Source: a virus
Strand: one strand, 5' to 3'
Virus record (IMG/VR): IMGVR_UViG_3300035092_000015
Location: 1 to 64,000 of that record
DNA length: 64,000 nt
Shown here piece after piece: positions 16,886 to 58,387 of this stretch (within the stretch, counting starts at the first letter, position 1; each line of letters begins with the position of its first letter). The notes under the pieces were generated by a model. It ran no database searches, was not told where the DNA came from, and saw only the letters and a list, made by a program, of their open reading frames with translations. Made by a program: the position numbers and the translations under genes.

Positions 16886-17656
16886 ATGAGCGGCAGCAAG
16901 ATCGTCACCGACCAGACCAGCTACAACGGCGAACCTCGGGCCCTGCCCGATGTGGCCAGCGAGCACTACACCGCGATCGACGGGGTGGAGGTCATCGCCC
17001 GCGAGTTGGCGGTCTCGCCGCACCCCCGGTGGAAGGACCAACACCCGCAGACCCACCATTTCATCACCAAGCTGCTGCTGGCCGACGGGCGCGAGGTATA
17101 CGAGTGCAACCACTGCCACCTGCACGATCCGGAGTTGAAGTCGATCAAGGCCCACCTGACCAAGCACCGGCCCAACCCGCCGCAGCCGTTGACCGACGTG
17201 GAGACGATCCGGACGGTGCTGCGGGAGGTCGAGCGGGCCCGCCGGCTGTACGGGGTGGGCCGGTACGGTAAGTACGCGGTGGACGCGCTGACCCGGCTCG
17301 GGGTCCGTCCGGCGACCGGCGATGAGTGGACGGTGGCGAAGGTGACCAGCCTGTACGGTGCCTACAAGGACCGCTACCCGGTCCGGGCGCCGAAGGTTAC
17401 CGCCCGCCCCGTGCAGCGGCGCCCCCGGGTCGTCGCGGCTGCCGTCCCGCCGGCCCCCGAACCGACGGTGGTGGTGTCCGGCAGCAACCGCGACCTGATG
17501 CAGCTGCTGGTCCAGATCGACGCCATCGTCCACCACGCGATGCGGGCGGTCGCGGCAGCAACCGACCCGGATGAGCAGATCGTGGAGAAGGCCGCCAAGC
17601 TGGACCAGCTGGTCGCCGGCCTGGGCGAGGACACGATCAACAAACTGCTGGCTTAG
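16886..17656 (+). CDS. C2H2 zinc-finger DNA-binding protein
   Basis: GAAGGAG RBS, YECNHC-x12-HLTKH. Confidence 0.65.
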   Translation: MSGSKIVTDQTSYNGEPRALPDVASEHYTAIDGVEVIARELAVSPHPRWKDQHPQTHHFITKLLLADGREVYECNHCHLHDPELKSIKAHLTKHRPNPPQPLTDVETIRTVLREVERARRLYGVGRYGKYAVDALTRLGVRPATGDEWTVAKVTSLYGAYKDRYPVRAPKVTARPVQRRPRVVAAAVPPAPEPTVVVSGSNRDLMQLLVQIDAIVHHAMRAVAAATDPDEQIVEKAAKLDQLVAGLGEDTINKLLA

Positions 17657-18054
17657 ACCCCATCCTCCGGCACCTCTCTGGCCTCGGCCGGGGGGGTGTC
17701 GCTGTAGGTGGGTTCGGTGTTGTCCGCCGCGTTCAGGTCCAGCGCCAGCTGCTCCGCCTCGTTCTCGTCCTTCTCGTCCTTAGGGACGCGGATGACCACA
17801 CAGGTCGCCAGGGTGGCGATCGAGTTCGCGTCGACCGACAGGAACACCGGGTCGCCGGTGCGCATGTCGGTTGCCCGGCTGAACACCAGCAGCGTCTTGC
17901 CCTGGCGGGCTTCGGCCCACGTCCGGGTCATGTGCTCGTGGACCTGGTCCTCCTGCGCGTCCGGGTCGGTGTCGTCGGGCAGCTCCAACGAGTCGATCAC
18001 CTGCGCGCGGTGTCCGCTGGCCAGGGTCATGTCAACCACATACTCAACCTTCAC
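17653..18054 (-). CDS. Acidic hypothetical protein
   Basis: AAGGAGAGG RBS, last gene of leftward arm. Confidence 0.55.
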   Translation of the reverse strand: MKVEYVVDMTLASGHRAQVIDSLELPDDTDPDAQEDQVHEHMTRTWAEARQGKTLLVFSRATDMRTGDPVFLSVDANSIATLATCVVIRVPKDEKDENEAEQLALDLNAADNTEPTYSDTPPAEAREVPEDGV

Positions 18055-18752
18055 GGTGCCTCTCCTTGTGTCTCCGACGGTGGGGGGCTATCGACATCCC
18101 CCCGTGGGGGTTTCAGTGTCTCCGTGACCAACGGGAGTACCTTCGCGATACCTTCGGACAGCGACCCGTGCGGGTCCAGTGCTGCCATCCGGGCGACGTT
18201 GATGAACAGAGCGCCGGTGGGCAGGCCGTGGCTGCGGACCGGGATGGTGTTGATGATCGGACGCCACGCCGCCTCAACTGCCTTCCACACTCCGGGCGAC
18301 CCGGCGACCCGGATCTGCTCGGTCGGGTTGACCAGCCGCTCCAACGGGTTCGGCTGGGTGTCCCAGATCGGGCTGTACCCCAGATCGAGTGATTCGCACA
18401 TCCCGGCGAGGCTGTCCAGTTCGGGTTGGGCTATCGGGTAGGTGACGACGGTGGGCAGCGGTCGGACCCGGATCGGGCCGGTCGCCAGGTGCAGCCACAT
18501 CTCCGGTTCGGCGGGTTGGCACACGAACACCAGGTCGCAGTAGTCGGCGAGCGTGTCGAGCCGGCTGGTGGTGGGGATGGCCCACCGCTCGAGCAGATCC
18601 ACCGTCTCGGGTGGGGTGCCATCGGGGGGGGCCCAGACCATCCCGTGGGGGTGGTAGGCGATCACGGAGTGGTACCCGTAGTCGCGCATGGCGAGCGCGA
18701 GCGGGATGCCGCGTTCCCAGTCGAGCCCGATGACCCCGATGCGTCGTTTCAC
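18051..18752 (-). CDS. Degenerate Rossmann-fold protein resembling NDP-sugar dehydrogenase N-terminal domain
   Basis: RIGVIGL start, CDLVFVC, but lacks the canonical GxGxxG. Lies at the end of the glycan cluster. Confidence 0.4.
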   Translation of the reverse strand: MKRRIGVIGLDWERGIPLALAMRDYGYHSVIAYHPHGMVWAPPDGTPPETVDLLERWAIPTTSRLDTLADYCDLVFVCQPAEPEMWLHLATGPIRVRPLPTVVTYPIAQPELDSLAGMCESLDLGYSPIWDTQPNPLERLVNPTEQIRVAGSPGVWKAVEAAWRPIINTIPVRSHGLPTGALFINVARMAALDPHGSLSEGIAKVLPLVTETLKPPRGDVDSPPPSETQGEAP

Positions 18753-18763
18753 CCTGCCGCCTC

Positions 18764-18940
18764 TCAGACCGCCGATGAGAACCCGGACACGGCCTCGCGC
18801 GGGTGATCGACCTCGCGTTGTAGCCGGCGCAGCGTGGCCTCCAACGCTGGATTGCCGGCCAGTTCGGGCAGCTTCGCGAGGCGCGCGCCGTCCAGCCGGG
18901 CCACCGTGGTCGGGACGTCCGCCGGATCCGGGTTCGTCAC
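18764..18940 (-). CDS. FxSxx-COOH RiPP precursor-like peptide (58 aa)
   Basis: AAGGAG RBS then GTG. Sequence ...LAGNPALEATLRRLQREVDHPREAVSGFSSAV* has the FxsA-type leader and terminal F-x-S-x-x. Confidence 0.7.
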   Translation of the reverse strand: MTNPDPADVPTTVARLDGARLAKLPELAGNPALEATLRRLQREVDHPREAVSGFSSAV

Positions 18941-19629
18941 CGGGCGTCTCCTTGTCCCGGGACCCCGGAGGTGTTCCCGCCGTCGGCGTGGTATCGCCAG
19001 GTCCGCTCCGCCAGGTGCACCATCTGCTGGCTGTTCCTGACCGCGTACTGCGACAACCCGATGATGTGGTACCAATCCTCGTTGCCGTACTTCTGCGAGT
19101 CGCCCTGGAACGGGTCGTTGATGAACCCGACCGCCTGGGCGGCGTCGGTCCGGACCAGGAACGTGATCGTGGTGTGGTGCGGGGTGGCCGGGTTGAACGG
19201 GATCCCGAAATGCCCGAGCGGGTCATTGTCCTCGGTCATCCACGGGAACACGAACATCGCCCCGGTCGCCTCCGCGACCTCCAGACACCGTTGCAGGTGC
19301 TGCGGCAGCCACTCGTCGTCCGAATCGCACCACGCCATCCACTCGGTCTGGACCTGGTCCAGGATCTGCTGGCGGGTCCAGCCGGCGCCGTGTCCGTCGC
19401 GGTCGTTTACGACCAGGATCCGGTCGGGTTGGCGGGTCTGGTTGACGATCGACCGGAGTGTCCGCTCGAGCTTCCCGTTCACGTACCGGGCGGGGTGGGC
19501 GGCGACGCAGGCGGTGACGGTGCCTGGGATCAAGGTGCGGACGGCCCGGTCCAGGTAGTGCTCTAGCGAGTACTCCGTCTCGGTCTCGGCCTCGGTCGCG
19601 TCGGTCGCGTCGTCGATCAACTCACCCAT
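18937..19629 (-). CDS. Glycosyltransferase family 2 (GT-A)
   Basis: SIVNQT..D.ILVVND, GAGWTR, WCDSDD (DxD). Confidence 0.8.
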   Translation of the reverse strand: MGELIDDATDATEAETETEYSLEHYLDRAVRTLIPGTVTACVAAHPARYVNGKLERTLRSIVNQTRQPDRILVVNDRDGHGAGWTRQQILDQVQTEWMAWCDSDDEWLPQHLQRCLEVAEATGAMFVFPWMTEDNDPLGHFGIPFNPATPHHTTITFLVRTDAAQAVGFINDPFQGDSQKYGNEDWYHIIGLSQYAVRNSQQMVHLAERTWRYHADGGNTSGVPGQGDAR

Positions 19630-19737
19630 GGTGCCCCCTCCACTTCTCTCCGAGCCACTCCGCCAACGCTACCGCCGCTAGGCCCACCAACAAGATGATG
19701 ATGCCGCCCAGACCTTGTGGGTCGTCCCAGCCGCCGT

Positions 19738-20433
19738 TCACCCGCCACCGCCGTGTTCGTGCAGAATCCACCAGGTCGCCCACGGCAGATCCATATTCCA
19801 CCGGACCGGCGCCGGCCCCAGCTGCGACAGCCGCAACAACACCGGCAGCGACAGCTGGTCCTGATGCGACCAGTTCACACACTCAACCCACCACAGATCC
19901 GACAGCGCGATCACCCCCGGGGTGTGCCGGCGTACATTCGCCCCCGTCGCGACCAACCCCCACCCGCCCGGGTGGAACGAACGGTACGCCTCAATCTGGC
20001 GCAGCACCGACGCCGGGTCGTACCGCCAGGTCAACGTCGCCGAGTATTCCCCCTCGGTGTAGATACAGTCCCGCCACGGGTGGCGCATACAGGACCAGTC
20101 GTCCGACCCGAGCGCCTGCAGGCATTTCTCCGGGTAGTCCGGGAACAGCAGCTGCATCGACCCGTCGATCCACAAGCTGACATCCACCCCGGGGCAGGCA
20201 AGCTCCGGGTGGGTCTTCCACCATTTGTGTGCCAACATCGGCCCGGTCACGGCCGGGTCGCCGTTCAGGGTGGCGATCCCGTGCCGGACGATCCGGGGTT
20301 CCCACCCGGCGGCGGCTGCCTTCTCCGCCGTCACCTCCGAATCGGTGTACAGGTAGGCGGGGATCCCGAGGAACGGCAACGGTTTGACCCAATCGTACGG
20401 GCCGTAGATCGCGGTGTACAGCGCGAGGTTCAT
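19738..20433 (-). CDS. DUF616-like glycosyltransferase
   Basis: LYTAIYGPYD, K.HP, SLWIDGS, HPWRDCIYTE and QDQLS motifs. Confidence 0.75.
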   Translation of the reverse strand: MNLALYTAIYGPYDWVKPLPFLGIPAYLYTDSEVTAEKAAAAGWEPRIVRHGIATLNGDPAVTGPMLAHKWWKTHPELACPGVDVSLWIDGSMQLLFPDYPEKCLQALGSDDWSCMRHPWRDCIYTEGEYSATLTWRYDPASVLRQIEAYRSFHPGGWGLVATGANVRRHTPGVIALSDLWWVECVNWSHQDQLSLPVLLRLSQLGPAPVRWNMDLPWATWWILHEHGGGG

Positions 20434-20648
20434 CGGCCGGCCAGGAAACGTTCAACCGTGGCTGAGTTGCGGTCGGTGTACGTCTGCGCTGTCACCCGGG
20501 CGACCTTGCGCAGCCAGTGCGCCCCCGACGGTCCGACTGGCCGGCTGGTTTCGAGCGCGTTGGCGTATTCGATCAACGATTTGACCGACGGCGGTGCGGG
20601 TACCAGCTGGACGTCGACCCACCACAGCAGCCGGTTGAGCAGCTTCAT
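20430..20648 (-). CDS. Hypothetical protein
   Basis: TGATG/ATGA coupling. Confidence 0.45.
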   Translation of the reverse strand: MKLLNRLLWWVDVQLVPAPPSVKSLIEYANALETSRPVGPSGAHWLRKVARVTAQTYTDRNSATVERFLAGR

Positions 20649-21187
20649 CACTCGTACCCCCGGACCGGTGCGTGGGCGGCGATCGCCTGCAGGTTGACGT
20701 GTAGCCGCCAGTTCCACTCCGCATCCGCCAGTGCGTTGTGCCGGTCCTTCGCAGGCGGCAGGATCTGCTCCGGGTCGACCCCCAACCGGTGCGCCTCCTG
20801 CTGCAGGTCGTTGGTCCACATCGGGATCCCGTTCGGATGGTCGTTCATCGTCCCGTATAGCTGGCACAACACCACATGGTCGTAGGCGCCGTACCAGGCC
20901 CACAACTCGACCGGTTCGCCCGGCCCGGTCAGGAACTGGTGGACCTGCTCGGCGATGGTCTCCCGTTCGCGGAACACTGGGTTGTATTCATCCAGACGCC
21001 CGTCGGGGGTGTGTGGGAGGCTCGGGAGGACGTTCTCGACCAGCCACGGGTGTCTCCGGATCCGCCGCCACGGCGCGTCCAAGTCGACCGCGTAGTACAT
21101 ATCGCCTCGGTCGTTGACAATCCCGATCGAGATCAGATCGACCGTCCGGCCGTCCTCCAGGAACTCACAATCGTAGTAGAACCTCAC
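20648..21187 (-). CDS. DEDDh 3'-5' exoribonuclease (Rv2179c/RNase AS-like)
   Basis: FYYDCEFLEDG, LISIG, WAWYGAYDHV, HNALADA. Confidence 0.85.
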   Translation of the reverse strand: MRFYYDCEFLEDGRTVDLISIGIVNDRGDMYYAVDLDAPWRRIRRHPWLVENVLPSLPHTPDGRLDEYNPVFRERETIAEQVHQFLTGPGEPVELWAWYGAYDHVVLCQLYGTMNDHPNGIPMWTNDLQQEAHRLGVDPEQILPPAKDRHNALADAEWNWRLHVNLQAIAAHAPVRGYE

Positions 21188-22011
21188 CCCAACGCCTCAT
21201 TCCGGTAAGTCAGGACAGCCTCACGCATCAAGTCCAGATCGTACCGGGGCCGCCAACCGAGCAGATCCCACCCCTCGCCCGCCGCGTGGATCTCCGACTC
21301 GATCTCCCCCTGGCGCATCGGCAGGAAATCGAACCGTGGCATCTTCCACCCGGTTGCACTGGCCGCCACCCACGCGACCTGCTTCACCGTCATCGGCACC
21401 CCGGTCCCGCCGTCGAACACCCGATCCGCGTCGCAGTGCTCGACCGCATCCACCAACATCCGCGCGAGGTCGTCCACGTGGATCATGTCGACGGTCTGCT
21501 CGCCCGACCCCCAGACCGGCAGCGGTTCCTGGCGCCACGCCTTCACCGCGAACGTCGGCAGGATCTTCTGCGGGTGTCCCGGGCCGTGTTTCTGCCCCGG
21601 CCCGTACGCGTTGAACGCCCGCACATGCGCCACCTGCAGCCCCCGGTTGTGGTGCAGCGCGGTGGCGATCCGCTGGGCGGCGATCTTGGTCGCGGTGTAC
21701 AGCGACGGGAACACGTCCGGCATCAAGATCCCGACGTACCGGGCGCCGTTGCGGATACACCACTGCATCACGTTCAACGCCCCCAGGACGTTCACCTTGA
21801 CTGCTTCGTTGGGGGTGTCGAACAGTTCTGCTGTCCCGAGCACCCCGGCGAGGTGGATGACCGCGTTGGCCCCCTCAAGCCCGCCGAGGTGACCGAGGAC
21901 ATCCCCGCCGTGGGTCCGGTCGACTGACCAGGCTTGGTGGCCGGCTTTGCGGGCGGCGACCACGGTGGGTGCGCCGATGAACCCGGATCCGCCGGTGACT
22001 GCGATCTTCAT
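21184..22011 (-). CDS. NAD-dependent epimerase/dehydratase
   Basis: TGGSGFIG, VIHLAG, YTATK (YxxxK), FNAYGPGQ. Confidence 0.9.
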   Translation of the reverse strand: MKIAVTGGSGFIGAPTVVAARKAGHQAWSVDRTHGGDVLGHLGGLEGANAVIHLAGVLGTAELFDTPNEAVKVNVLGALNVMQWCIRNGARYVGILMPDVFPSLYTATKIAAQRIATALHHNRGLQVAHVRAFNAYGPGQKHGPGHPQKILPTFAVKAWRQEPLPVWGSGEQTVDMIHVDDLARMLVDAVEHCDADRVFDGGTGVPMTVKQVAWVAASATGWKMPRFDFLPMRQGEIESEIHAAGEGWDLLGWRPRYDLDLMREAVLTYRNEALG

Positions 22012-22670
22012 GCCCACTCCTCGGTGAGTTCGGCCAACGCCTGTTCGGGGGTGATAGCGGTGACCCGGTCCAGTACCGCAGGGGGGACGGTGGTCCAGTC
22101 CTGCCAAATCTCGACCAGCCGCCGGTCCGGTGCCCACTCCTGGGGGTGGGCTGGGAACCCTGACACTACCAGACACCCGGTGGGCCAGGTGTCGACCAGG
22201 CGCAGCCGCAGATCCGGTCGGTATTCGGCGAGCATCCGGCGGATCTTCCACACGTCGCCGGTCCAGTCCCCCAGGATGGGGGTGCCGACGGGGATCCGGC
22301 GGGCTTCTTCCTGGTTACGGGGCAGGACGTCGTCGAGCGCGACGATCGAGCGGGGGTGGCAGTACCGGGCGATGTTCTGGAAGTCCCGTACGACGTATTC
22401 GATCAGGTGCATCCCGTCGATGTACGCCAGGTCGATCTGCCACCCATCAGGTCGGGGGTCGGCGAAGAACTCATCGGAGGTCATGCTGTGGATCTTCTGG
22501 TTCGCGGTCTCCACGACCAGCGGCTGCGGGTCGATCCCGATCGCGACCTCGGCTGCGAACGCCAGGTTCAGGCTGTACCCGTGTTGAACCCCGACCTCCA
22601 GGTAGGTTTTCGGCCGGACCAGCCGGTGCAGCCCGGTCAGGAACCCACGGGTGTCGCTTAGATCGACCAT
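22008..22670 (-). CDS. Class I SAM-dependent methyltransferase (Methyltransf_24-like)
   Basis: YLEVGVQHG, DLAYIDGMH, ALDD, WTGDVWK. Confidence 0.85.
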   Translation of the reverse strand: MVDLSDTRGFLTGLHRLVRPKTYLEVGVQHGYSLNLAFAAEVAIGIDPQPLVVETANQKIHSMTSDEFFADPRPDGWQIDLAYIDGMHLIEYVVRDFQNIARYCHPRSIVALDDVLPRNQEEARRIPVGTPILGDWTGDVWKIRRMLAEYRPDLRLRLVDTWPTGCLVVSGFPAHPQEWAPDRRLVEIWQDWTTVPPAVLDRVTAITPEQALAELTEEWA

Positions 22671-23341
22671 GGCCGGAACCCCCACTTCTCGACAAACAAC
22701 GCCATGTCGACCCCGGTCCTGGCCTGCAACTCCGGGCGGGTCGAGGTCGACTGGTCCGGATACAGATGCCGGACCTCATCCCGGGGCATGATCAACGTCC
22801 CGCCCAACCGGCGGGCCTGCATGTCCAGGTCGTTGTCCCCGCACCACCAGGCGAACCGTTCGTCGGCCCGCAGGTTCCCCTCGCCGCGCAGCAGGAACGC
22901 CCACCCGGGCATCCGTTCATGCAACGCCGTCAACCCCGGTTCGCGGTGGAATACCGGCTCGTGGACCGGGCCGAACCCGGCAGCATAGCACCCCCCCAGG
23001 CGCATCGGGGTCGACAACCGGTCGAACCAGTCCGGCGGAAGGATCGCATCGTCGTTGCACACCGCCACGTCGTACATCGTCCGGTTAGTGCTCGACATGT
23101 TGGCGACCGCGACCCGCCCGAGCCCGACGTTCCACAGCCGGGACAGGTTCGGCGGCTGCTCCGGGTGGTGCTCCACCACAACCAGCGGGTGCCGGTGATC
23201 GTCGAAATAGCCGCCCAAGTCGGAGTTGTCCACTACCACCACCCACGCGTTCTGGGCCTGGGCGGCGGCGATCGCTTCGCGCAGTTCTTTGTCCCGTTCG
23301 CCTCGGGTGGTGATCACCGCATACCGGGGGATCCGGTCCAT
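22658..23341 (-). CDS. Glycosyltransferase family 2
   Basis: VVVVDNS, WNVG, VCNDD, GWAFLLR, WWCGDND. Confidence 0.8.
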   Translation of the reverse strand: MDRIPRYAVITTRGERDKELREAIAAAQAQNAWVVVVDNSDLGGYFDDHRHPLVVVEHHPEQPPNLSRLWNVGLGRVAVANMSSTNRTMYDVAVCNDDAILPPDWFDRLSTPMRLGGCYAAGFGPVHEPVFHREPGLTALHERMPGWAFLLRGEGNLRADERFAWWCGDNDLDMQARRLGGTLIMPRDEVRHLYPDQSTSTRPELQARTGVDMALFVEKWGFRPWSI

Positions 23342-23841
23342 CAACGCTCCTTGTCGGGGTAGACGAGTTGGCCGTCGTACATCAGCCACATCCTGGACAG
23401 CTGGACCTCCATGTCCTGGATAGCCGACAGGAGCCACCTCCGGAACTCCTCAGCGGTAACTCTGTCCCGGTTGAAGATCGGCAGCCGGATAATCAGCCCA
23501 AGCCGGTCGGTCAGCGACTTGTGCGGCGGGATGGTCTGCGACAGGTAGTGCCGTTCTTCCGGCTCGGGGTCGGTGTAGCCGTTCATAGCCGGGAACCGCA
23601 TGCGGTGCAAGAACCGGTTCGGGTCCCGCACCTCGACCCGCAGCACCATCCAATCGACCATATAACCCGGAGGCGTAAACAGTGGGCTGGACGGGTCGAC
23701 CTGGTCCGGAGACAGCAACTCGAACCGCCACCCCGGTTTGTAACTGTGCCGGCGCAGCTGGGCCCGGTACCAACCATCGGTACCCGGCGGGGACAGAGCA
23801 TCCAGCACCTGCTCGCGGCGTTCCTGGACCGGGTCTTTCAC
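23341..23841 (-). CDS. Hypothetical protein
   Basis: Coupled ORF, YKPGWRF motif. Confidence 0.5.
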   Translation of the reverse strand: MKDPVQERREQVLDALSPPGTDGWYRAQLRRHSYKPGWRFELLSPDQVDPSSPLFTPPGYMVDWMVLRVEVRDPNRFLHRMRFPAMNGYTDPEPEERHYLSQTIPPHKSLTDRLGLIIRLPIFNRDRVTAEEFRRWLLSAIQDMEVQLSRMWLMYDGQLVYPDKER

Positions 23842-24821
23842 GACTGGTACGCCTTCAGCCAACGCCAAGCGTTCCCCTCCACCGTCCGGGTCGCGGCCCA
23901 CTCCCGACCCGCCTGCGCCATCTCGTCGCGCAGCTGCGGCGATTTGGTCAACGTCCACAGGTGTTTATCCCACTGTTTCGGGTCAGACACCAGGAACCCG
24001 GTCTTGCCGTGTTGGACCGACTCGCGGTACGCGACCACATCCGACGCGACCACCGGGAACCCCAGCGCGTTCGCCTCCAGACAGCGCAGGTCCGACTTGG
24101 AGGTGTTGAACACCGTCGGCGCCAGCGGCGCCACCGCGAAATGCCAATCCAGCAGGTGGTAGAACCGGTCGTGTCCGACCCAATCGGTCCTGCGGTGCGG
24201 GTGGACGCTGGGGAACGACGGCGGGGTCGATCCGACCGTGTGGAACTCCACCGGGACCCCCTGCTGCCGGGCCTGGTTGAACCAACGCCCGATCGGGTTC
24301 GCGGCGCGGGCCCAGTCGCCGGTGTGGGTGGCCGACCCTTGCCAGCCGACGGTGATCCGGTCGACGTGGTACCCGTGTTGCCAGTCCAGTAACGCCGCCG
24401 GGATGCAGTTCGGTACGACGTGGATGTTCCGGTTGTACTGGGCTAGCCGTTCTGCCAGCGGGGCGGTGGAGACGGTGACCACGTCGGCGACCTGCAGGTT
24501 GGCGATGATGTTCGCCTGGATCTGCGGGTTGTTGAAGAACTCGACGCTCGGGTTGTGCTGGTCCAGGTTCAACAGGTCGTCGTCGACCTCGTACACCAGT
24601 TTCGGCCGGTTCCCTTTCGACCGGGCCATCCGCTGGAAGATCCCGGTCGGGCCTTCCAGGCAGGTCCGTTGGGCGATCACCACGTCGTAATCCCAGAACT
24701 CCTCCTTCAAGGTGTTCCCGAACCGGGTGTGTTCGCCCTGCTCGCGCAAAGCCGCCAGCGGCAGTAGGATCCGGTACCAGGCACAGCCGGCGAAATCGGC
24801 CTGCCAGCCGAAGATCTTCAC
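23838..24821 (-). CDS. Glycosyltransferase (GT-B/GT4-like)
   Basis: GCAWYRILLP, VYEVDD, ADVVTVST, FNTSKSDLRCLE, PVVASD. Confidence 0.85.
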   Translation of the reverse strand: MKIFGWQADFAGCAWYRILLPLAALREQGEHTRFGNTLKEEFWDYDVVIAQRTCLEGPTGIFQRMARSKGNRPKLVYEVDDDLLNLDQHNPSVEFFNNPQIQANIIANLQVADVVTVSTAPLAERLAQYNRNIHVVPNCIPAALLDWQHGYHVDRITVGWQGSATHTGDWARAANPIGRWFNQARQQGVPVEFHTVGSTPPSFPSVHPHRRTDWVGHDRFYHLLDWHFAVAPLAPTVFNTSKSDLRCLEANALGFPVVASDVVAYRESVQHGKTGFLVSDPKQWDKHLWTLTKSPQLRDEMAQAGREWAATRTVEGNAWRWLKAYQS

Positions 24822-26278: not shown

Positions 26279-26557
26279 TCATGGCAGGTCCTGCTCCGGC
26301 GGGCCGGTCTCACCCTCGTCCGCCTCGTCCGGCGGTTCGGGGGTTGGGGCGGTGGCGACGTCACCAGCGGGGTCGATGTCGCGCCAGCGGCTGTCGCCGG
26401 GGCGGGTCCCGCCGTGTCCGAGCGGACCCTCATATTCGGCTAGCCACGTCTTGGCCTTGTCCAGCCAGGGCGTGGCGTCGCCTGGCTGGATCCCACGGGC
26501 GATGCTGTTGAAAAGCCCGGCGGCCCGCTCGAGCAGGTCCTGGTCCTTGCTATTCAC
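26279..26557 (-). CDS. Hypothetical protein
   Basis: Coupled ORF. Confidence 0.45.
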   Translation of the reverse strand: MNSKDQDLLERAAGLFNSIARGIQPGDATPWLDKAKTWLAEYEGPLGHGGTRPGDSRWRDIDPAGDVATAPTPEPPDEADEGETGPPEQDLP

Positions 26558-27059
26558 CCTCGTCCTCCTTGCCCGGGTTCAACACCCGCTCCAAACCGGA
26601 CTGGATCGCCTCCAGTTCGTGACGCAACTCGGCCTCGCTGATCCTATCGGTCTGGAACACCCGGCGGGTGTAGTCCGCCCAATGCCGGACCCCCACCCGC
26701 AGCCGGGCCACTTCCATGTCCGACAGCCGGTCAGCCGCCAGCCGCAGCGTCGTCGCGGACAGCTCAACATCGCCGTCCTCGTCCAGCGTCCCCTGCGCGG
26801 TCCGCGAGACGTACAACGCCCGCATCACCTTGCGCAGCGCCTCGTCCTGCTCCGGGTTCGCGACCTCCAGCCCGGTGATCCGCAGTTCGACCGACCGGTC
26901 CTTGTCCTCGTCCGGGGCGGGTTCGTTGCGGACTGCGTGCTTCAACTCCCCGACCACCATGATCCGGGCGCCCTGGTTGCGGTACAGCCGGTCGGCGTAA
27001 AGCTCGACCGCCTCCTGGGCGGAGGTGGACGGTTTGCCGCTGATCTTAACGGTGGTCAC
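26550..27059 (-). CDS. Hypothetical protein
   Basis: AGGAGG RBS, downstream of promoter at 27.1 kb. Confidence 0.6.
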   Translation of the reverse strand: MTTVKISGKPSTSAQEAVELYADRLYRNQGARIMVVGELKHAVRNEPAPDEDKDRSVELRITGLEVANPEQDEALRKVMRALYVSRTAQGTLDEDGDVELSATTLRLAADRLSDMEVARLRVGVRHWADYTRRVFQTDRISEAELRHELEAIQSGLERVLNPGKEDEGE

Positions 27060-34115: not shown

Positions 34116-34342
34116 TCCAGGAGCTTAGCGCCGTCGAACGGACCGCGCTGCACATCGTGGTCGAAGGCGCCAAAACCGCCGTCGAGATGTTCCAGGAACA
34201 ACCAGCCAAAACCGCCGACGGGACCTTGGTCGACGACACCACCTGCCGTCAGATCGCGCTGCTCGCCGCGAACCTCACCCACGCCATCGCCTGCTACCCC
34301 CACGTCCTGCTCGAACTCGCCGCCCAGGAGGAACCGACATGA
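34112..34342 (+). CDS. Hypothetical protein
   Basis: Coupled, contains the AGGAGG RBS for purZ. Confidence 0.5.
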   Translation: MIQELSAVERTALHIVVEGAKTAVEMFQEQPAKTADGTLVDDTTCRQIALLAANLTHAIACYPHVLLELAAQEEPT

Positions 34343-35388
34343 CCCGAGGCACCATCCAAGTCATCGCAGGCGGACAGTACGGATCCGAAGCGAAAGGCGC
34401 CGTCGCCGGCTACCTGGCCGCCGAACAGGAACAGATGCTCGCGATCCGGGTCGCTGGCCCCAACGCCGGACATTCGGTGGTCGACCCGATCACCGGCGAG
34501 AAGTACGCCCTGCGGCAGATCCCCGCCGCCGCTGTTACCAACCCCGGCGCGTCGCTGTGCATCGCCGCCGGATCCGAGATCGACCCGTACGTGCTGCACG
34601 AAGAGATCGCCTGGCTCGAACGCGGCGGGATCCACGTCAAGGACCGGTTGTTGATCGACCCGGCCGCGACCTGGCTCACCCAGGACCACAAAGACCGCGA
34701 AATCACCGCCGGGATCGTCGGGCGGATCGGGTCCACCGGGAAAGGGATCGGCGCTGCCCGCGCCGCCCGGATCATGCGCGAAGCCCGCACCGTCGGACAG
34801 CACCGGTCCGAGTTCGAACAGTACGGACACATCGGGTCCGTTGCTACCGCCGCCCGGTCCGTACTGCGCGGCGGGGCCACGGTCCAGATCGAAGGGACAC
34901 AAGGGTACGGGTTGGGGCTGCACGGGGAACACTACCCGCAATGCACCTCCTCGGATTGCACCGCGTTGGATTTCCTGCAGATGGCCCGGGTCAACCCGTG
35001 GGAAGCCGACCAGCTGCAGGTGTGGCTGGTGTTCCGGCCCTACCCGATCCGGGTCGCCGGCAACTCCGGATATCTGTACGGCGAGACCAGCTGGGAGGCA
35101 CTCGGGCTGGCACCGGAGATGACCACCGTCACCAAGAATATCCGCCGGGTCGGGCAGTGGGACGGCGGGCTGGCGTACGCCGCGATGCAAGCCAACGGTG
35201 GGTCGCGTGTCGTGTGGCCGGTGCTGACCATGGCCGACCAGATCGACCCTGCCCTGGCCGGGGTGACCGACTCTGACACGGTGCTCGGGTCGGATCTGCT
35301 CGGGCAGTTCCTGAAGATCTTCGAAGCCGACGTCGGGCTCGAACCGTGCATGATCACCACCTCCGACCGCACCTGCGTGAGGCTGTGA
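34339..35388 (+). CDS. purZ: PurA paralogue, PurZ0-type 2-amino-deoxyadenylosuccinate synthetase
   Basis: GGQYGSEAKG (Ser replaces the PurA catalytic Asp of GDEGKG), GPNAGH, GSTGKGIG, EGTQG, YPQCTS, PIRVAGNSG, TTVTK..RRV, and LTMAD (GTP-type TxxD). Confidence 0.85.
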   Translation: MTRGTIQVIAGGQYGSEAKGAVAGYLAAEQEQMLAIRVAGPNAGHSVVDPITGEKYALRQIPAAAVTNPGASLCIAAGSEIDPYVLHEEIAWLERGGIHVKDRLLIDPAATWLTQDHKDREITAGIVGRIGSTGKGIGAARAARIMREARTVGQHRSEFEQYGHIGSVATAARSVLRGGATVQIEGTQGYGLGLHGEHYPQCTSSDCTALDFLQMARVNPWEADQLQVWLVFRPYPIRVAGNSGYLYGETSWEALGLAPEMTTVTKNIRRVGQWDGGLAYAAMQANGGSRVVWPVLTMADQIDPALAGVTDSDTVLGSDLLGQFLKIFEADVGLEPCMITTSDRTCVRL

Positions 35389-35963
35389 TGGCCAAGAAGA
35401 AGCTCCCCCTGCAGGTCGCCTGCTCGACTTGCCACCGGCAGTACAAACCCCGACCCAACAACACCCTGCCCCGCCACAAAGACGGACTGCGGTGGTGCCC
35501 CGGCAGCTACCAGCCGCCCGCCGCACCCGACGACAACGCCACACCCGGCGGCAGTGGGTTTGCTTGGCTGCCCACCCCCGAACCGATCCTGATCGAAGTG
35601 CCCCGAGTCGGGGCGAAAGCACAACCACTGGCCGATTGGTGGGCCGCCCGCGCCCTGGCCGAGATCGAGATGGTCGTGGCGAAAGCCGTCGAATACGGCG
35701 CCACCGACCTGCGCGACCTGGGCTACCAGATGCTGGACATGGCCGGGCGGCGCGAGCAGTTCATGGACCCGGAGGACCTGCACTACAGCGACGCCTACGC
35801 CACCGAGGTCGGGATCGTCTTCTACGCCCAAGGGAAACTCGCCCGCGCCGTGGCCGCGATCAAAGAAGGCCGACGGCCCTCAGTCGATACCTGGCTGGAC
35901 CTCGGGGTGTACGCCCGGATGGCCCAACGGGTCCACGACCGAGGCGGCTGGCCCGGTGTCTAG
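35388..35963 (+). CDS. Zn-ribbon plus Nmad1/DUF1599-like (MazG-fold) nucleotide pyrophosphohydrolase candidate
   Basis: K..EYG..DL ... KLAR ... DTWLDLGVY pattern, TGATG-coupled to purZ. Confidence 0.6.
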   Translation: MAKKKLPLQVACSTCHRQYKPRPNNTLPRHKDGLRWCPGSYQPPAAPDDNATPGGSGFAWLPTPEPILIEVPRVGAKAQPLADWWAARALAEIEMVVAKAVEYGATDLRDLGYQMLDMAGRREQFMDPEDLHYSDAYATEVGIVFYAQGKLARAVAAIKEGRRPSVDTWLDLGVYARMAQRVHDRGGWPGV

Positions 35964-36041
35964 CCGGCACTGGTTCGACCCGATCCCCGCCTGCATCTAC
36001 TGGGTGTGGTTCATCCTGACTTACTGCACTGGCAGCTGACC

Positions 36042-36287
36042 ATGCCCACCCGGATATCCACCGCAGACGAACACTACTGGGAGCAGCAAGCCCGACACCT
36101 GGTCGCCTGCGACACCTGCCCCGCCCCGATCGACCAACCATGCCACTACCCGACCAGCGGAGTCGAAGCGTCAGTGTGCTGCCACACCAGCCGGATGGTC
36201 AAAGCCGTCAACCACCCCGACTGGGCCGGAAGGAAACCCAAATGGCTACCGACGAAACAATGCGCGACTGGCTCGCCCCCCAGATGA
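36042..36287 (+). CDS. Small Zn-finger protein
   Basis: CDTCPA...PC...CHTSR. Confidence 0.5.
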   Translation: MPTRISTADEHYWEQQARHLVACDTCPAPIDQPCHYPTSGVEASVCCHTSRMVKAVNHPDWAGRKPKWLPTKQCATGSPPR

Positions 36288-36532
36288 GACGCGCCGACTG
36301 CCCCGAACCCGACTGCAACATGTGGGCCGGACATCAAGGGCTACACTCCATCGCCCCCCGGGCTAGGCACACCATCCCCGGCTGGGCAGTGACCCTGTTC
36401 GCACTCACCGCCGGGCTGGCCATGCTAGCCGCCGCCGCCCGGATCCATCTGGAAACCGCCCTGCTCGCCGGCTGCGGGACGCTGCTGGTCGGCACCGCCA
36501 TCGCCGCGATCAACGAGATGAGGAGACACTGA
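36242..36532 (+). CDS. Small membrane protein
   Basis: GAAGGA RBS, two TM segments. Confidence 0.5.
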   Translation: MATDETMRDWLAPQMRRADCPEPDCNMWAGHQGLHSIAPRARHTIPGWAVTLFALTAGLAMLAAAARIHLETALLAGCGTLLVGTAIAAINEMRRH

Positions 36533-37485
36533 TGGGCACACCCTGGGGCGACCAACCCCCACTCGTCTACTTCGCCGAACCGATCGACAAAGCCCACGGG
36601 CAGAACTTCGCCATCGCCGCCACCATGCACGGCGCACTCACCACCTGGGGCTGCACCACCTACCGCCCCAGCGCAGCCTGGAAAGCCACCCACCTGGACT
36701 GGCGGGTCGACCACCTCAACCGGCAAGCGCTACGCCTGGCCGACCTGATCGTCGCCTACCTCGACGAACACACCCCATCGATCGGAGTCCCCGCCGAGAT
36801 CGAAGCCGCCACCGCCCAGAAAATCCCCGCCATCGTGCACTACACCGGCACCTCGTTCGTCCTGGCCGGCAACCCCCTGGTCACCGTCATCACCAAAACC
36901 GAAGACCTGGTCGCAGCGGTGATGCGAGCATTGAAAGACCACCCCCGGCCCGACCGGGCCGCCGACCACCAACTGGCCCGGACCCTCGCATCGGGTGGTT
37001 CGGTCAGCCTCGGCACCATCACCCCCGCACAGGCCACCGCCCTGGTCGCCAAGATCAACGGCCCCGAACCGATCCGGCTGGTCGTCACCGAAGGCGCCGC
37101 CCCACCCCAGCGGGTCTACCAAGACGACGCCGGAATCGACCTCACCACCGCCGCCGAGATCGTCATCAACCCCGGACAGTACGTCGACGTCCCCACCCAG
37201 GTCGAAGCCACCCAACTCCCCTCCGGATACTGGGGGTTGATCACCGGCCGCTCGAGTGCGCTGCGGAAATGGCGCCTGCACATCCCCATCGCCGTGATCG
37301 ACCCCGGCTGGCGCGGCCCGCTGTTCGTCGGGGTGTGGAACCTCGGCGGGAACCCCGTCACCGTCAAAGCCGGCGACCGGCTCGGCCAGCTGATCCTCAT
37401 CCCCAACCACACCGCCCCGATCGAAGTCGTCGCGGCGGTTGAAGACCACCCCCGGGGTTTGAAAGGATTCGGCTCGAGCGGATGA
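36532..37485 (+). CDS. Fusion of nucleoside 2-deoxyribosyltransferase/N-glycosidase-like domain and trimeric dUTPase-like domain
   Basis: N-term VYFAEPID...ADLIVA...SIGVPAEIEAA. C-term DAGIDL, GRSS, VIDPGWRG, GDRLGQ, RGLKGFGSSG. Confidence 0.8.
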   Translation: MGTPWGDQPPLVYFAEPIDKAHGQNFAIAATMHGALTTWGCTTYRPSAAWKATHLDWRVDHLNRQALRLADLIVAYLDEHTPSIGVPAEIEAATAQKIPAIVHYTGTSFVLAGNPLVTVITKTEDLVAAVMRALKDHPRPDRAADHQLARTLASGGSVSLGTITPAQATALVAKINGPEPIRLVVTEGAAPPQRVYQDDAGIDLTTAAEIVINPGQYVDVPTQVEATQLPSGYWGLITGRSSALRKWRLHIPIAVIDPGWRGPLFVGVWNLGGNPVTVKAGDRLGQLILIPNHTAPIEVVAAVEDHPRGLKGFGSSG

Positions 37486-37925
37486 AACCCAGCCACCAAT
37501 GCCGGGTCTGCGGACGGTGGCTCGAAGGCGAGTGGAACCGGACCACCGACCCAGACCTGCAGGCCGCCCTGCAACGGCAGATGAACCAAGGCCACTGCGA
37601 CGGGTGCACACCCGACCTCGAACGGCCCCACCAATGGCGACCCACCCGGCTCGGCGTCACCCGGATCCTGCAAACCGAACGGCTGGCCATCCACCGGATC
37701 AACTACCTGTGGTGGTGCGCCTGGTGCGGCACACAGACCAGACAACCCGACTACCCCGGCGGGACCTGCAACCAACACCGCCTGGCCGAACTGACCGGCC
37801 GGACCTACACCGTCGACACCAAACCGACCCTCCCAGGAAGGCCACCCAACCGGACATGGCACTCGACTACCAATGCGTGTACTGCCGCCCCCAACCCCAC
37901 GCACGATTCCACAACGGGACATTGA
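37482..37925 (+). CDS. Cys-rich hypothetical protein
   Basis: Multiple CxxC, ATGA coupling. Confidence 0.45.
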   Translation: MKPSHQCRVCGRWLEGEWNRTTDPDLQAALQRQMNQGHCDGCTPDLERPHQWRPTRLGVTRILQTERLAIHRINYLWWCAWCGTQTRQPDYPGGTCNQHRLAELTGRTYTVDTKPTLPGRPPNRTWHSTTNACTAAPNPTHDSTTGH

Positions 37926-38146
37926 TCGAGATCGCCCTACACCACACCGGACGGCGCTGCCACGGCGACATCACCCGGCTCACACCCACCGAATGGGACA
38001 GTTACGCCCCCGCACACGTGGACACCGAGCTGCGCCAGAAATGGGTCCGAGGGTGGCAGGCAACCCAATCACCCGACGCGAAACCACCCAAACCCGACCG
38101 GGTACGCCCCGCCGGGACCGTCCGCCGGCCCACCCCCCGCCGGTAG
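37856..38146 (+). CDS. Hypothetical protein
   Basis: CVYC...H...C pattern. Confidence 0.4.
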   Translation: MALDYQCVYCRPQPHARFHNGTLIEIALHHTGRRCHGDITRLTPTEWDSYAPAHVDTELRQKWVRGWQATQSPDAKPPKPDRVRPAGTVRRPTPRR

Positions 38147-38326
38147 GGTGTTGTCCCGCCAGAACCAGCGGTACGATAGACGATCCGCGTCCGGGGACAG
38201 GAGCGGGGGGCTGCGCCGCCACGCGCAACCCCCCACCTGCTGACACCGGAACCCGCAAGACCACCCGGATCAATCCTAGCACAACCGGCCCCCGACGGCC
38301 GCCAACCACAACAAGAGGGGGGACGA

Positions 38327-40474: not shown

Positions 40475-40503
40475 CCGTCGGGACCGCGTGATAGAGTGCA
40501 GGG

Positions 40504-40767
40504 ATGGCAACCCAGATCCAACCGGGACAACCCGGTGACCTGCCCGACCACCCACGCCCCATCAGCAGCACCACCTACCCCTGGGACCAATGGGCCGACG
40601 GACACACCTGGCTGCTCACCCGAGACACCGACTACACCGACACCACCCACAAAGTCACCGAAGCCGCCAAGAAACACGCCCAACGCCACGGCTACCACCT
40701 GCGCTACGCCACCACCCCCAACAGCATCCGCCTACGATTCATCCCGAAGGAACCCGCCACACCATGA
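40504..40767 (+). CDS. Hypothetical protein
   Basis: YPWDQWADG motif, ATGA coupling to purB. Confidence 0.6.
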   Translation: MATQIQPGQPGDLPDHPRPISSTTYPWDQWADGHTWLLTRDTDYTDTTHKVTEAAKKHAQRHGYHLRYATTPNSIRLRFIPKEPATP

Positions 40768-55604: not shown

Positions 55605-56074
55605 CCTGGGGACCAAGCGACGAGCAGAAACACCCTCGCGACCGGGCTGGGCGGTGGGCCGAGAAGCTGTCCGATCTGATCGGCCAGCGCCGTTACCGTG
55701 GCATGCTCGCTGACTTGGCGGCGATGTCCGCAGACACCCCGGAGCACCGACAACAGGGGGCGGCGGCCCGCCGGGAGACGGCTGAGTGGTTGCGTGGTCT
55801 TCTGTCCGACCCGGAGTCCGGGCACGCTACGATCCCGGTCGGTGTTGGTGTCCTGCTCGACTTGGCTGACGTGATCGCGGGTGGGGAGTGGCAGGTCGCC
55901 CCGGCGTGGGGGTCGGGTGAGCCGGGCGGGGTGATCCGCCGGGTGTACACCGGCGGGCCGGGCGCCGGGTCGCTGCGGATTGAGACCGACGGGGGGAATC
56001 TGGATTTCCCGATCCCCGAGCCGTGGTCACGGGGCGAAGAGATCCGCATCCAACGCGCCTTCCGTCGGGGGTGA
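55601..56074 (+). CDS. HPR-leader protein 1
   Basis: MTWGPSDEQKHPRDRAGRWAEKLSDLI. Confidence 0.65.
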   Translation: MTWGPSDEQKHPRDRAGRWAEKLSDLIGQRRYRGMLADLAAMSADTPEHRQQGAAARRETAEWLRGLLSDPESGHATIPVGVGVLLDLADVIAGGEWQVAPAWGSGEPGGVIRRVYTGGPGAGSLRIETDGGNLDFPIPEPWSRGEEIRIQRAFRRG

Positions 56075-56077
56075 CCT

Positions 56078-56923: not shown

Positions 56924-56934
56924 CAGGAGGAGAA

Positions 56935-57108
56935 ATGGCAACCTACGGAGCACCCCGGCAGGTGCCGGGCCGTAACAGTACCGGCCGCAGCCGCCAGACG
57001 AGCAGCGCGAAGCGTAAGGGGATGAAGGCGCTGCCGCCGCGACGGACCGGCGGGTCGAAGATGACCCGCGACGGGTCGAACCCGATGGCCCACGGCGGGA
57101 ACTGCTAA
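56935..57108 (+). CDS. 57-aa basic peptide (not in ORF track)
   Basis: AGGAGG RBS, MATYGAPRQ...KRKGMK...NPMAHGGNC. Confidence 0.65.
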   Translation: MATYGAPRQVPGRNSTGRSRQTSSAKRKGMKALPPRRTGGSKMTRDGSNPMAHGGNC

Positions 57109-57114
57109 GGAGAG

Positions 57115-57969: not shown

Positions 57970-57972
57970 TTC

Positions 57973-58350: not shown

Positions 58351-58376
58351 CACATACGGTGTCACTCTGGTAGAAT
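58347..58376 (+). promoter_or_regulatory. Promoter with perfect operator palindrome
   Basis: GTGACA-N18-TAGAAT, with GTGACAC-ATACG-GTGTCAC. Confidence 0.7.
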
Positions 58377-58387
58377 GGGAGTATGCA

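What the first reader, a model, noticed from the sequence alone, without database searches (positions are those of the whole stretch)
18764..18940. Orphan FxSxx-COOH RiPP precursor encoded by a phage
Seen: a 58-aa ORF with AAGGAG RBS, 4-nt overlap with the upstream glycosyltransferase stop, a helical leader and terminal GFSSAV. No radical SAM CxxxCxxC gene is seen in the window. Known: actinobacterial FxsA peptides are cyclophane (triceptide) substrates of the FxsB radical SAM, in loci that also encode TIR-like FxsC and NTPase/TPR proteins. Inference: a phage mimic or decoy that titrates or hijacks a host Fxs system, which would hint that these loci are antiviral. Alternatively it is a substrate for the neighbouring glycosyltransferases.
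Basis: partly seen in the sequence, partly recalled or inferred. Interest (0 to 1): 0.8.

Follow-up and report, generated by a model that had tools for sequence, protein, structure and literature searches.

The report
Orphan FxsA peptide gene in phage
A complete soil phage carries, inside its sugar-building operon and without the enzyme that normally modifies it, a small peptide gene that actinomycetes keep in a predicted immune gene cluster, so the phage probably uses the peptide to interfere with that host cluster.

Summary
Window 18764-18940 (-) encodes a 58-aa peptide ending in GFSSAV. It scores 35.5 bits against NCBIfam TIGR04268 (FxSxx-COOH), whose cut-off is 28. It has an AAGGAG ribosome-binding site and a GTGA overlap with the upstream GT2 gene.

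The 80,875-bp genome has terminal repeats and is rated 100% complete. It holds no FxsB, no other radical SAM enzyme, no HExxH hydroxylase and no Fxs TPR protein.

The gene is conserved in a syntenic phage and in an unrelated phage lineage, where it sits in tRNA arrays. A temperate phage carries a host-type copy. None of these 5 viral records has FxsB, whereas 5 of 5 bacterial FxsA genomes do. Selection is purifying on the leader helix and core only.

Best reading (about 0.5): a phage copy of the host precursor that engages host Fxs machinery. The rival reading, a substrate of the neighbouring glycosyltransferases, is weakened because the GT link is confined to this lineage.

This scan has already found orphan phage FxsA on other DNA: 21 notes in at least 18 genomes. 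I found no open-access paper describing it.

The parts
18764..18940 (-). 58-aa FxsA-like (FxSxx-COOH family) precursor-type peptide gene, GTG start, TGA stop
   Evidence: Translation. TIGR04268 scores 35.5 bits against a cut-off of 28. Codon-position GC is 0.79/0.53/0.86. A 79%-identical ortholog sits in the same place in phage L003.
18948..18953 (-). AAGGAG ribosome-binding site, 7 nt before the GTG start
   Evidence: Read from the sequence (plus strand CTCCTT).
18806..18880 (-). Leader part, residues 21-45 (LAKLPELAGNPALEATLRRLQREVD). It holds the two predicted helices and the family's conserved ALExTLRRL block.
   Evidence: Helices at 21-27 and 31-45. Invariant columns in the phage-type alignment. 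dN/dS is 0.24 for residues 25-58 and 1.14 for residues 2-24.
18767..18784 (-). Core GFSSAV, residues 53-58. F54-S55-S56 is the F-x-S motif, followed by exactly two residues and the stop.
   Evidence: G53, F54 and S56 are conserved in at least 90% of the 39 aligned family members. All six viral copies seen end two residues after the Ser.
18937..19629 (-). Upstream GT2 glycosyltransferase (230 aa), translationally coupled to the peptide gene by a GTGA overlap
   Evidence: PF00535 at 49.3 bits and phrog_14775 at E 4.6e-30. 42.5% identical to the Zuko gp106 glycosyltransferase.
18051..18752 (-). Downstream 233-aa gene, 11 nt after the peptide's stop. It is probably a short, divergent UDP-glucose/GDP-mannose dehydrogenase-like protein (a lead only).
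   Evidence: No Pfam, PHROG or NCBIfam hit. In the ESM Atlas feature search the first hit is a UDPG_MGDP_dh cluster, score 0.93 with 170 shared features. The fold model was too poor to use, pLDDT 47.8.
19738..24821 (-). Rest of the leftward glycan-building operon: a TOD1/MUCI70-like GT, a 73-aa ORF, an Rv2179c-like exoribonuclease, an NAD epimerase, a Methyltransf_24 gene, a 228-aa and a 155-aa ORF, and a phrog_7162 GT. This is context, not shown to act on the peptide.

Best explanation
The ORF is a real, translated phage gene for a precursor-type peptide of the FxsA (FxSxx-COOH) family. It was captured from actinomycete hosts and is kept by phages without any maturase.

Inferred mechanism. 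The peptide is made early or mid infection from the leftward operon. Its conserved leader (ALEATLRRL helix) and its exact C-terminal F-S-S-x-x-COOH core let it be recognised by the host's Fxs proteins. These are the FxsB radical SAM/SPASM cyclophane synthase and, modified or not, the FxSxx-COOH-system TPR/NTPase and TIR partners. By occupying or feeding these proteins, the phage copy keeps the host's predicted suicide or alarm module from firing or from sending its peptide signal. It would act as a decoy substrate, or as a stand-in ligand when host synthesis is shut off.

Shown: family membership, orphan state, conservation in several phage lineages, and purifying selection on leader and core.

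Inferred: every step that involves host proteins.
For: Family membership and coding:
- HMM over cut-off.
- FSSAV-COOH terminus.
- RBS, GTGA coupling and coding GC pattern.

No phage maturase: in a 100%-complete genome there are 0 hits for TIGR04269, PF04055, TIGR04267 and NF040586.

FxsA recurs in phages without FxsB:
- TIGR04269 is in 0 of 5 other viral records that hold FxsA; three of these are 93-100% complete.
- It is in 5 of 5 bacterial genomes that hold FxsA, and lies adjacent in Longispora.

The only constant partner must therefore be host-supplied, because the phage contexts differ:
- a glycan operon here and in L003;
- tRNA arrays of 28 and 22 tRNAs in L006 and L007;
- beside HicAB and an integrase in L009;
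- the terminases of the two main lineages are unrelated, E 0.37.

Selection:
- Against the L003 ortholog, dN/dS is 0.24 for residues 25-58 and 1.14 for residues 2-24.
- A strain variant in a rhizosphere contig differs by A19V plus two changes that leave the peptide unaltered.

Bacterial Fxs loci carry FxsB, an aKG-HExxH hydroxylase and the FxSxx_TPR protein. A preprint places FxsC/FxsT in TIR-ParA immune systems and proposes the FxsAB peptide as an antiviral molecule or alarm (10.64898/2026.10.19.760177, passages read).
Against: - The host is unknown, so it is not shown that it has an Fxs locus. In a sample of the GTDB order of Longispora only 28 of 401 genomes pass the TIGR04268 cut-off. In a phylum-wide sample only 1 of 401 matched the phage-type profile, and that one was the centre genome itself.
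- No bacterial genome examined holds the phage-type sequence (PREAVSGFSSA[VI]). The narrow pattern gave 0 confirmed of 34 stretches in 185,579 species genomes. None of the 27 C-termini extracted from the order sample has it. A cognate host enzyme for this sub-type is therefore not identified.
- The gene is flanked on both sides by sugar-metabolism genes and is translationally coupled to a GT2, which fits the rival.
- The peptide is less conserved (79%) than its neighbours (87-97%) between the two sister phages.
- No expression data exist; no RNA run holds the stretch.
Confidence: 0.5

Rival explanations
1. The peptide belongs to the phage's own glycan operon. It would be glycosylated on its Ser-rich tail (SGFSSAV) by the coupled GT2 or the other GTs (a glycopeptide), or it would serve as an acceptor, primer or regulator for that pathway, independent of any host FxsB.
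For: - GTGA translational coupling to a GT2, kept in the sister phage L003.
- The downstream gene looks like a UDP-sugar dehydrogenase, so the peptide lies inside the operon, not at its end (a lead only).
- There are three Ser residues in the last seven positions.
Against: - Streptomyces phage Zuko has the homologous GT-methyltransferase-GT cluster (GT2 42.5% identical) but no peptide gene after it, and 0 TIGR04268 hits in its whole genome.
- In the 100%-complete 104,655-bp phage behind L006, FxsA lies at 31.8 kb and the only PF00535 hit at 87.2 kb.
- The 95%-complete phage behind L009 has FxsA and no PF00535 hit.
- The two bacterial Fxs loci annotated show no GT.
- What is conserved is the FxsB-type leader plus the exact FxSxx-COOH end, not Ser/Thr positions in general.
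- The GT2 is only 230 aa. It lacks the extra peptide-binding domain that I recall for glycocin transferases; this point rests on recall and was not tested.
Confidence: 0.15
2. The phage borrows the host's FxsB to make a mature cyclophane peptide for its own purposes rather than to block defence. Possible uses are a signal between infected cells, an agent against competing phages or bacteria, or a trigger of the alarm in neighbouring cells.
For: The data are the same as for the best explanation: leader and core conserved, no maturase. The preprint proposes that the host peptide may be a diffusible alarm or an antiviral molecule, which a phage could exploit as well as block.
Against: No protease, exporter or receptor gene specific to such a use was recognised near the gene. 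The phage appears lytic: no integrase was noticed in my gene list, though I did not search for one by HMM. Nothing here separates this reading from a decoy.
Confidence: 0.2
3. It is a functionless passenger, a recently captured fragment of a host Fxs locus or a chance ORF.
For: It is short. The N-terminal 24 residues evolve neutrally (dN/dS 1.14). No RNA evidence exists.
Against: - It is conserved at 57-61% identity across phage lineages with unrelated terminases and different GC content, 67% against 60%.
- dN/dS is 0.24 on residues 25-58.
- It has an RBS and operon coupling.
- The ORF is intact in environmental variants.
- The HMM E-value is 8.3e-9.
Confidence: 0.05

Closest known systems
FxsA / FxSxx-COOH precursor peptides of Actinomycetota (NCBIfam TIGR04268), substrates of the FxsB-family cyclophane-forming radical SAM/SPASM maturase (TIGR04269); a triceptide-type RiPP
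   Same: - Size: 58 aa.
- HMM score over the curated cut-off.
- Helical leader with the ALxxxLRRL block.
- The F-x-S motif lies exactly two residues before the C-terminus.
- Roughly 33-43% identical to the canonical AGF(Q/N/S)S-type members in the 39-row alignment.
   Different: - It is encoded by a phage with no FxsB, hydroxylase, TPR or TIR partner.
- It belongs to a sequence sub-type (E[AT]TLRRL...PREAVSGFSSA[VI]) seen here only in viral contigs and in metagenome proteins of unknown origin.
- It is embedded in a glycan operon.
Earlier notes of this scan: 'phage-borne orphan FxsA peptide precursor' on other phage genomes (e1-5611230, e1-5785253 and others)
   Same: Same family, same lack of a maturase, same proposed use of the host system. 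I saw the tRNA-array context myself in L006 and L007, and a temperate, integrase-bearing phage context in L009.
   Different: Here the gene is translationally coupled inside a glycosyltransferase operon of a PurZ-type phage. None of the 8 notes listed to me describes this context.
Phage-encoded stand-ins for labile host immunity components, for example antitoxin mimics that keep abortive-infection toxins silent (general concept, recalled, not from a call)
   Same: A small phage gene copies the short-lived or regulatory member of a host suicide-type module while the effector stays host-encoded.
   Different: No toxin-antitoxin relation has been shown for Fxs. The role of FxsA in the host locus is itself unknown.
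Glycocins such as sublancin with its GT2-family S-glycosyltransferase (recalled, not from a call)
   Same: A small precursor gene sits next to a GT2-family gene.
   Different: The peptide has no Cys and matches the FxsA HMM. The GT2 has homologs without any peptide partner.

Membership tests
FxsA / FxSxx-COOH precursor (NCBIfam TIGR04268) | Score at or above the curated HMM cut-off (28 bits) | tested here: met
   35.5 bits, E 8.3e-9. 34.9 bits in the six-frame genome search, with 0 of 14 control genomes over cut-off.
FxsA / FxSxx-COOH precursor (NCBIfam TIGR04268) | C-terminus F-x-S-x-x-COOH | tested here: met
   ...GFSSAV followed by a stop.
FxsA / FxSxx-COOH precursor (NCBIfam TIGR04268) | Short peptide with a leader carrying the conserved (D/N)xALxxxLRRL block before the core | tested here: met
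   It aligns over residues 5-58 with 38 family members. Predicted helices at 21-27 and 31-45.
FxsA / FxSxx-COOH precursor (NCBIfam TIGR04268) | Encoded beside an FxsB-family radical SAM/SPASM maturase (TIGR04269) | tested here: not met
   0 matches for TIGR04269 and PF04055 in the complete 80,875-bp genome. For comparison, 5 of 5 bacterial FxsA genomes have FxsB.
FxsA / FxSxx-COOH precursor (NCBIfam TIGR04268) | Locus also holds the aKG-HExxH hydroxylase (TIGR04267) and the FxSxx-COOH-system TPR protein (NF040586) | tested here: not met
   0 matches for either in the phage. Both are present in the Longispora and Nonomuraea loci.
FxsA / FxSxx-COOH precursor (NCBIfam TIGR04268) | Phe-to-Ser C-beta cyclophane crosslink made by FxsB (triceptide chemistry) | not testable with these tools
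   This needs co-expression and mass spectrometry. The triceptide definition is taken from passages of PMC11499958.
Glycocin-type glycosylated RiPP | Cys-containing helical-hairpin precursor modified by a dedicated GT2 with a peptide-binding domain (features recalled) | tested here: not met
   The peptide has no Cys. The GT2 is 230 aa with only the PF00535 catalytic region recognised, and it has homologs in phages that lack the peptide. Glycosylation itself was not testable.

The most novel reading that the evidence does not exclude
A phage-specific branch of the FxsA family (E[AT]TLRRL...PREAVSGFSSA[VI]) has spread among unrelated actinophages as an anti-defence gene.

In this reading the free FxSxx-COOH tail, cyclised by host FxsB or not, is the ligand of the Fxs TPR/NTPase sensor. 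The host locus guards its own short-lived FxsA, and the phage supplies a stand-in during host shut-off so that the TIR-ParA suicide module stays silent.

If true, Fxs loci would be abortive-infection systems controlled by a RiPP, and this peptide would be the first phage-encoded RiPP-precursor mimic.
Probability: 0.25. Interest if true: 0.85.

Novelty: new variant of a known kind. Interest (0 to 1): 0.62.

Why it matters
Fxs loci are widespread in filamentous actinomycetes, yet no function is known for their peptide. One 2026 preprint predicts that their TIR and ParA partners are immune modules.

A phage that keeps only the precursor gene, under purifying selection on exactly the parts the host machinery should recognise, is independent genetic evidence that the Fxs system matters during infection. 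It also makes the question directly testable. Express the phage peptide in an Fxs+ host, or delete it from a cultured FxsA phage, and measure phage plating, FxsB modification and TPR binding.

It would further be a rare case of a virus carrying a RiPP precursor that depends on a host maturase.

The position inside a glycan operon is peculiar to this phage lineage. It offers a second, cheaper test: is the peptide glycosylated?

Tried and rejected
1. GenBank phages. tblastn of the peptide against 50,697 records gave 15 records at E<=10, with a best E of 3. None is a relative.

2. Complex prediction. Longispora FxsB (6-row alignment) with the phage peptide (13-row alignment) gave 'no answer': median 0.46, but one unrelated control scored 0.70. 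This is no evidence either way.

3. Expression. No RNA holder was listed for window 17600-21200. All 24 listed runs are soil or rhizosphere DNA metagenomes.

4. Fold of the 233-aa downstream protein. Mean pLDDT was 47.8, too poor for a fold search, so none was run.

Their phage or bacterial origin is therefore unknown.

6. Related phages found through the 233-aa protein. Only the same sister contig came back, so I could not look for an 'empty site' version of this operon in IMG/VR. Zuko served instead.

7. Host inference.
- The phylum sample gave 1 of 401, and that one was the centre genome itself.
- DNA-level matches to GenBank phages are only 116-124 bp of a DnaQ-like gene in 6 Gordonia phage records.

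8. A second weak TIGR04268 hit at 26860-26949 (+) scores 13.7 bits, below cut-off, and is antisense to the gene at 26550-27059 (-). I rejected it as chance.

9. The tree of 65 rows on 60 columns is poorly resolved: 33 of 61 inner branches are open. Its bacterial rows were picked by a canonical-type pattern. I use it only as a description.

10. No promoter-like site was found, and no terminator-like site on the minus strand, in 17400-20600. This fits an operon but proves nothing.

Supplementary Fig. S8 and the tables of preprint 10.64898/2026.10.19.760177 may show Fxs neighbourhoods, possibly phage-borne ones, that I could not see.

Full report
**What is there.**

Window 18764-18940 on the minus strand encodes a 58-residue peptide, VTNPDPADVPTTVARLDGARLAKLPELAGNPALEATLRRLQREVDHPREAVSGFSSAV.
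- It starts at a GTG preceded by AAGGAG at a 7-nt spacing.
- The start overlaps the TGA of the upstream 230-aa gene by four bases, GTGA.
- GC by codon position is 0.79/0.53/0.86, the same coding signature as the neighbouring genes of this 67% GC genome.
- Against NCBIfam the peptide matches one family only, TIGR04268 'FxSxx-COOH cyclophane-containing RiPP peptide'. The score is 35.5 bits against a curated cut-off of 28, E 8.3e-9, and the match runs to the last residue of both peptide and profile.
- My Pfam copy gave nothing. The precomputed annotation of its relatives lists PF27839.
- The same HMM passes the cut-off in 0 of 14 control genomes.

**The replicon.**

The window is the first 64 kb of an 80,875-bp IMG/VR record with direct terminal repeats, rated 100% complete by CheckV.
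- Its large terminase is 45% identical over 95% of its length to that of Streptomyces phage Zuko (82.3 kb), and is similar to those of other Streptomyces and Microbacterium phages.
- At the DNA level only 116-124 bases of a DnaQ-like gene match GenBank phages, in 6 Gordonia phage records.
- Near-identical DNA occurs in rhizosphere and soil metagenomes: 24 runs are listed, 3 of them with half or more of the sampled words.
- The host is unknown. It is an actinomycete by inference only.

**Orphan state.**

The whole genome has no match to FxsB (TIGR04269, E<=1). It has no radical SAM domain (PF04055, E<=1, while 14 of 14 control genomes match). It also lacks the aKG-HExxH peptide hydroxylase (TIGR04267) and the FxSxx-COOH-system TPR protein (NF040586).

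As a positive control I fetched bacterial FxsA loci.
- 9 were confirmed out of 93 pattern matches: Longispora, Parafrankia, Frankia, two Actinoplanes, Nonomuraea, a Micromonosporaceae MAG, a Mycobacteriales MAG and an Actinomycetota MAG.
- In 5 of the 5 genomes tested, FxsB is present over its cut-off.
- In Longispora the FxsB reading frame begins a few bases after the FxsA stop.
- The Longispora and Nonomuraea loci also hold the hydroxylase and the FxSxx_TPR protein.

**Conservation in phages.**

IMG/VR scans found the following.
- A sister phage (72,977 bp, 93% complete). Its copy is 79% identical and sits in the same place, GT2 then peptide then the 233-aa gene, again with a 4-nt overlap.
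- A second lineage of about 60% GC. It has contigs of 104,655 bp (100% complete), 39,698 bp and 16,558 bp, with copies 54-61% identical.
- Two contigs with a canonical, host-like copy ending AVAGFQS(A/S)(L/I). One is 46,498 bp (95% complete) and one is a 5.5-kb fragment.

None of the 5 viral records tested has FxsB.

The contexts differ.
- In the second lineage the gene lies inside tRNA arrays, with 28 and 22 tRNA genes in the fetched loci.
- In the 46.5-kb phage it lies between the lysis region and a HicA/HicB pair, near an integrase.
- The terminases of this phage and of the 104.7-kb phage are unrelated (E 0.37).

So the peptide gene recurs in unrelated phages with no constant phage-encoded neighbour.

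**Selection.**

Against the sister phage, the peptide is 79% identical. The flanking proteins are 92% (GT2), 97% (TOD1-like GT) and 87% (233-aa protein) identical.

The changes are concentrated in the first 24 residues.

| Residues | dN | dS | dN/dS |
|---|---|---|---|
| 2-24 | 0.288 | 0.253 | 1.14 |
| 25-58 | 0.057 | 0.240 | 0.24 |

The counts are small: 26 substitutions in all.

A 7,928-bp contig from a rhizosphere run carries a variant with three differences inside the ORF, at 18885, 18821 and 18770. The protein from that contig (P0002) differs from the window's peptide only by A19V, apart from the start residue. The other two differences are therefore silent.

The conserved part is the predicted helical leader (helices 21-27 and 31-45, pLDDT 73-83) plus the core. 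All six viral copies end exactly two residues after the Ser of F-x-S.

**A phage-type sub-family?**

An exhaustive profile search of 1.84 billion representatives found 54 proteins at E<=1e-3. The closest ones share ...E[AT]TL.RL...PREAVSGFSSA[VI].
- Ten of these were looked up. Nine come from metagenome collections (ENA, Logan, JGI/IMG) and one from an unnamed NCBI contig of 7,536 bp. All sit on short contigs, and none has an informative name.
- A scan of 185,579 species genomes with the pattern [PRE][RQT]E[AP]VSGF[STA]S gave 34 stretches, none confirmed.
- In an HMM-based sample of the GTDB order of Longispora, which does not depend on such a pattern, 28 of 401 genomes pass the TIGR04268 cut-off. 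None of the 27 C-termini I extracted is of the phage type. They end AAFQ(N/S)S(L/I), AGF(N/E)SAL, SAFESSF and similar.

I ranked everything with a profile of the phage clade. The top 15 rows, at 51 bits or more, are 3 viral and 12 metagenomic proteins of unknown origin. The best row from a bacterial genome is at rank 24 with 45.4 bits. Three of the top rows were used to build the profile.

The fall-off is gradual, not a gap. The tree is poorly resolved, and its bacterial rows were chosen by a canonical-type pattern. I therefore call this a lead: the sub-type is so far seen only in viruses and in unassigned metagenome contigs.

**The glycan operon and the rival reading.**

The peptide lies in a tightly packed leftward operon with these genes:
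- GT2, 18937-19629
- a TOD1/MUCI70-like GT, 19738-20433
- an Rv2179c-like exoribonuclease
- an NAD-dependent epimerase
- a Methyltransf_24 methyltransferase
- a phrog_7162 GT, 23838-24821

The downstream 233-aa protein has no HMM hit and only three relatives. It looks like a short UDP-glucose/GDP-mannose dehydrogenase by language-model features, score 0.93 (a lead).

The peptide is thus inside a sugar operon, and its tail is Ser-rich, so glycosylation by the coupled GT2 is conceivable. Four points argue against this as the gene's reason for existing.
- Zuko has the homologous GT-methyltransferase-GT cluster but no such peptide anywhere.
- In the 104.7-kb phage the only GT2 is 55 kb from FxsA, and the 46.5-kb phage has none.
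- The two bacterial Fxs loci annotated show no GT.
- Conservation follows the FxsA family pattern.

I keep this rival at 0.15.

**Mechanism.**

What is known of the family:
- Triceptide synthases make an aromatic-to-C-beta crosslink on a three-residue motif (passages of PMC11499958).
- NCBIfam names FxsB a cyclophane-forming maturase.
- A preprint of October 2026 (10.64898/2026.10.19.760177; passages read) assigns FxsC (active TIR) and FxsT (ParA plus inactive TIR) to predicted apoptosis-type immune systems.
- The same preprint suggests that the FxsAB peptide is an antiviral molecule or an alarm signal. In the passages found it says nothing about phage copies; the terms decoy, mimic and counter-defense occur 0 times.

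From this and the anatomy I infer that the phage peptide is recognised by host Fxs proteins and blunts or steers the system. Either it acts as a decoy substrate of FxsB, or it acts as a stand-in ligand of the TPR sensor. I favour the second. The family's defining feature is a free C-terminus at a fixed distance from the motif, and TPR domains are known to clamp C-terminal peptides. That last point is recalled, not from a call. None of these host steps is shown here. The one complex prediction gave no verdict, and the host is unknown.

**Novelty and standing.**

This scan has already noted orphan phage FxsA genes on other DNA: 21 notes in at least 18 genomes, 8 of them listed to me. The phenomenon is therefore not unique to this window.

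New here are the position inside a glycosyltransferase operon of a phage with PurZ-type genes and the evidence for a phage-type sequence sub-family.

In the held open-access library I found no paper on phage-encoded FxsA. I ran four searches:
- 'FxsA/FxsB'
- 'FxSxx-COOH/triceptide/FxsC'
- RiPP, precursor peptide, prophage, radical SAM and anti-defense
- 'FxsAB/FxsT/TIGR04268/TIGR04269/SjiA/MscB'

Subscription journals and supplements were not searchable.

I rate it a new variant of a known kind, with interest 0.62.

Noticed in passing
window 55601-64000 and on to about 72300 of the genome: A run of paralogous genes have products that all begin with a W..(E/D)xxHPR(D/N)PxxG(R/Q)F-type N-terminal motif, placed after the portal gene (gene list). 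The scan has already followed this up as a candidate capsid-cargo tag (e1-6126324).
   Followed up: no
L007 8639-8713: ARAGORN calls a tRNA with anticodon CTA (labelled tRNA-Pyl), that is an amber-reading tRNA. It sits in the 22-tRNA array of the phage contig that also holds an FxsA gene.
   Followed up: no
L009 10332-10947: A HicA-like ORF (113 aa) and a HicB-like ORF (82 aa) lie directly after the orphan FxsA gene of a temperate 46.5-kb phage, with an integrase 2.4 kb further on. The names come from my reading of the translations; no HMM was run.
   Followed up: no
proteins P0018 (1221 aa) and P0047 (849 aa): Two long metagenome proteins match only the leader-helix part of the phage FxsA profile, positions 23-47 and 27-56, in 6 and 4 separate stretches. 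They look like proteins with repeated FxsA-leader-like segments. I left them unexplained and out of the tree.
   Followed up: no
proteins P0010, P0015, P0019, P0024 (94-117 aa): These FxsA-type peptides carry 40-60 extra N-terminal residues, which may be mis-called starts or a longer-leader form. P0010 and P0019 have the phage-type tail.
   Followed up: no
window 18051-18752 (-): The 233-aa protein begins RIGVIGLDWERGIPLA where a dinucleotide-binding glycine motif would be expected (the motif is recalled). It has only 3 relatives among 5.8 billion proteins. Its feature-based look-alikes are UDP-glucose/GDP-mannose dehydrogenases, many of them viral. It may be a degenerate or non-catalytic dehydrogenase.
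   Followed up: partly
window 19585 (GT2 N-terminal region): The 7,928-bp rhizosphere contig lacks 6 bases here. This is an in-frame 2-codon length variant in the acidic N-terminal tail of the GT2.
   Followed up: no
window 34339-42206: Earlier notes of the scan place a PurZ0-type 2-aminoadenine (Z-base) gene set with its own adenylosuccinate lyase in this phage (e1-6126329). I did not re-test this.
   Followed up: no
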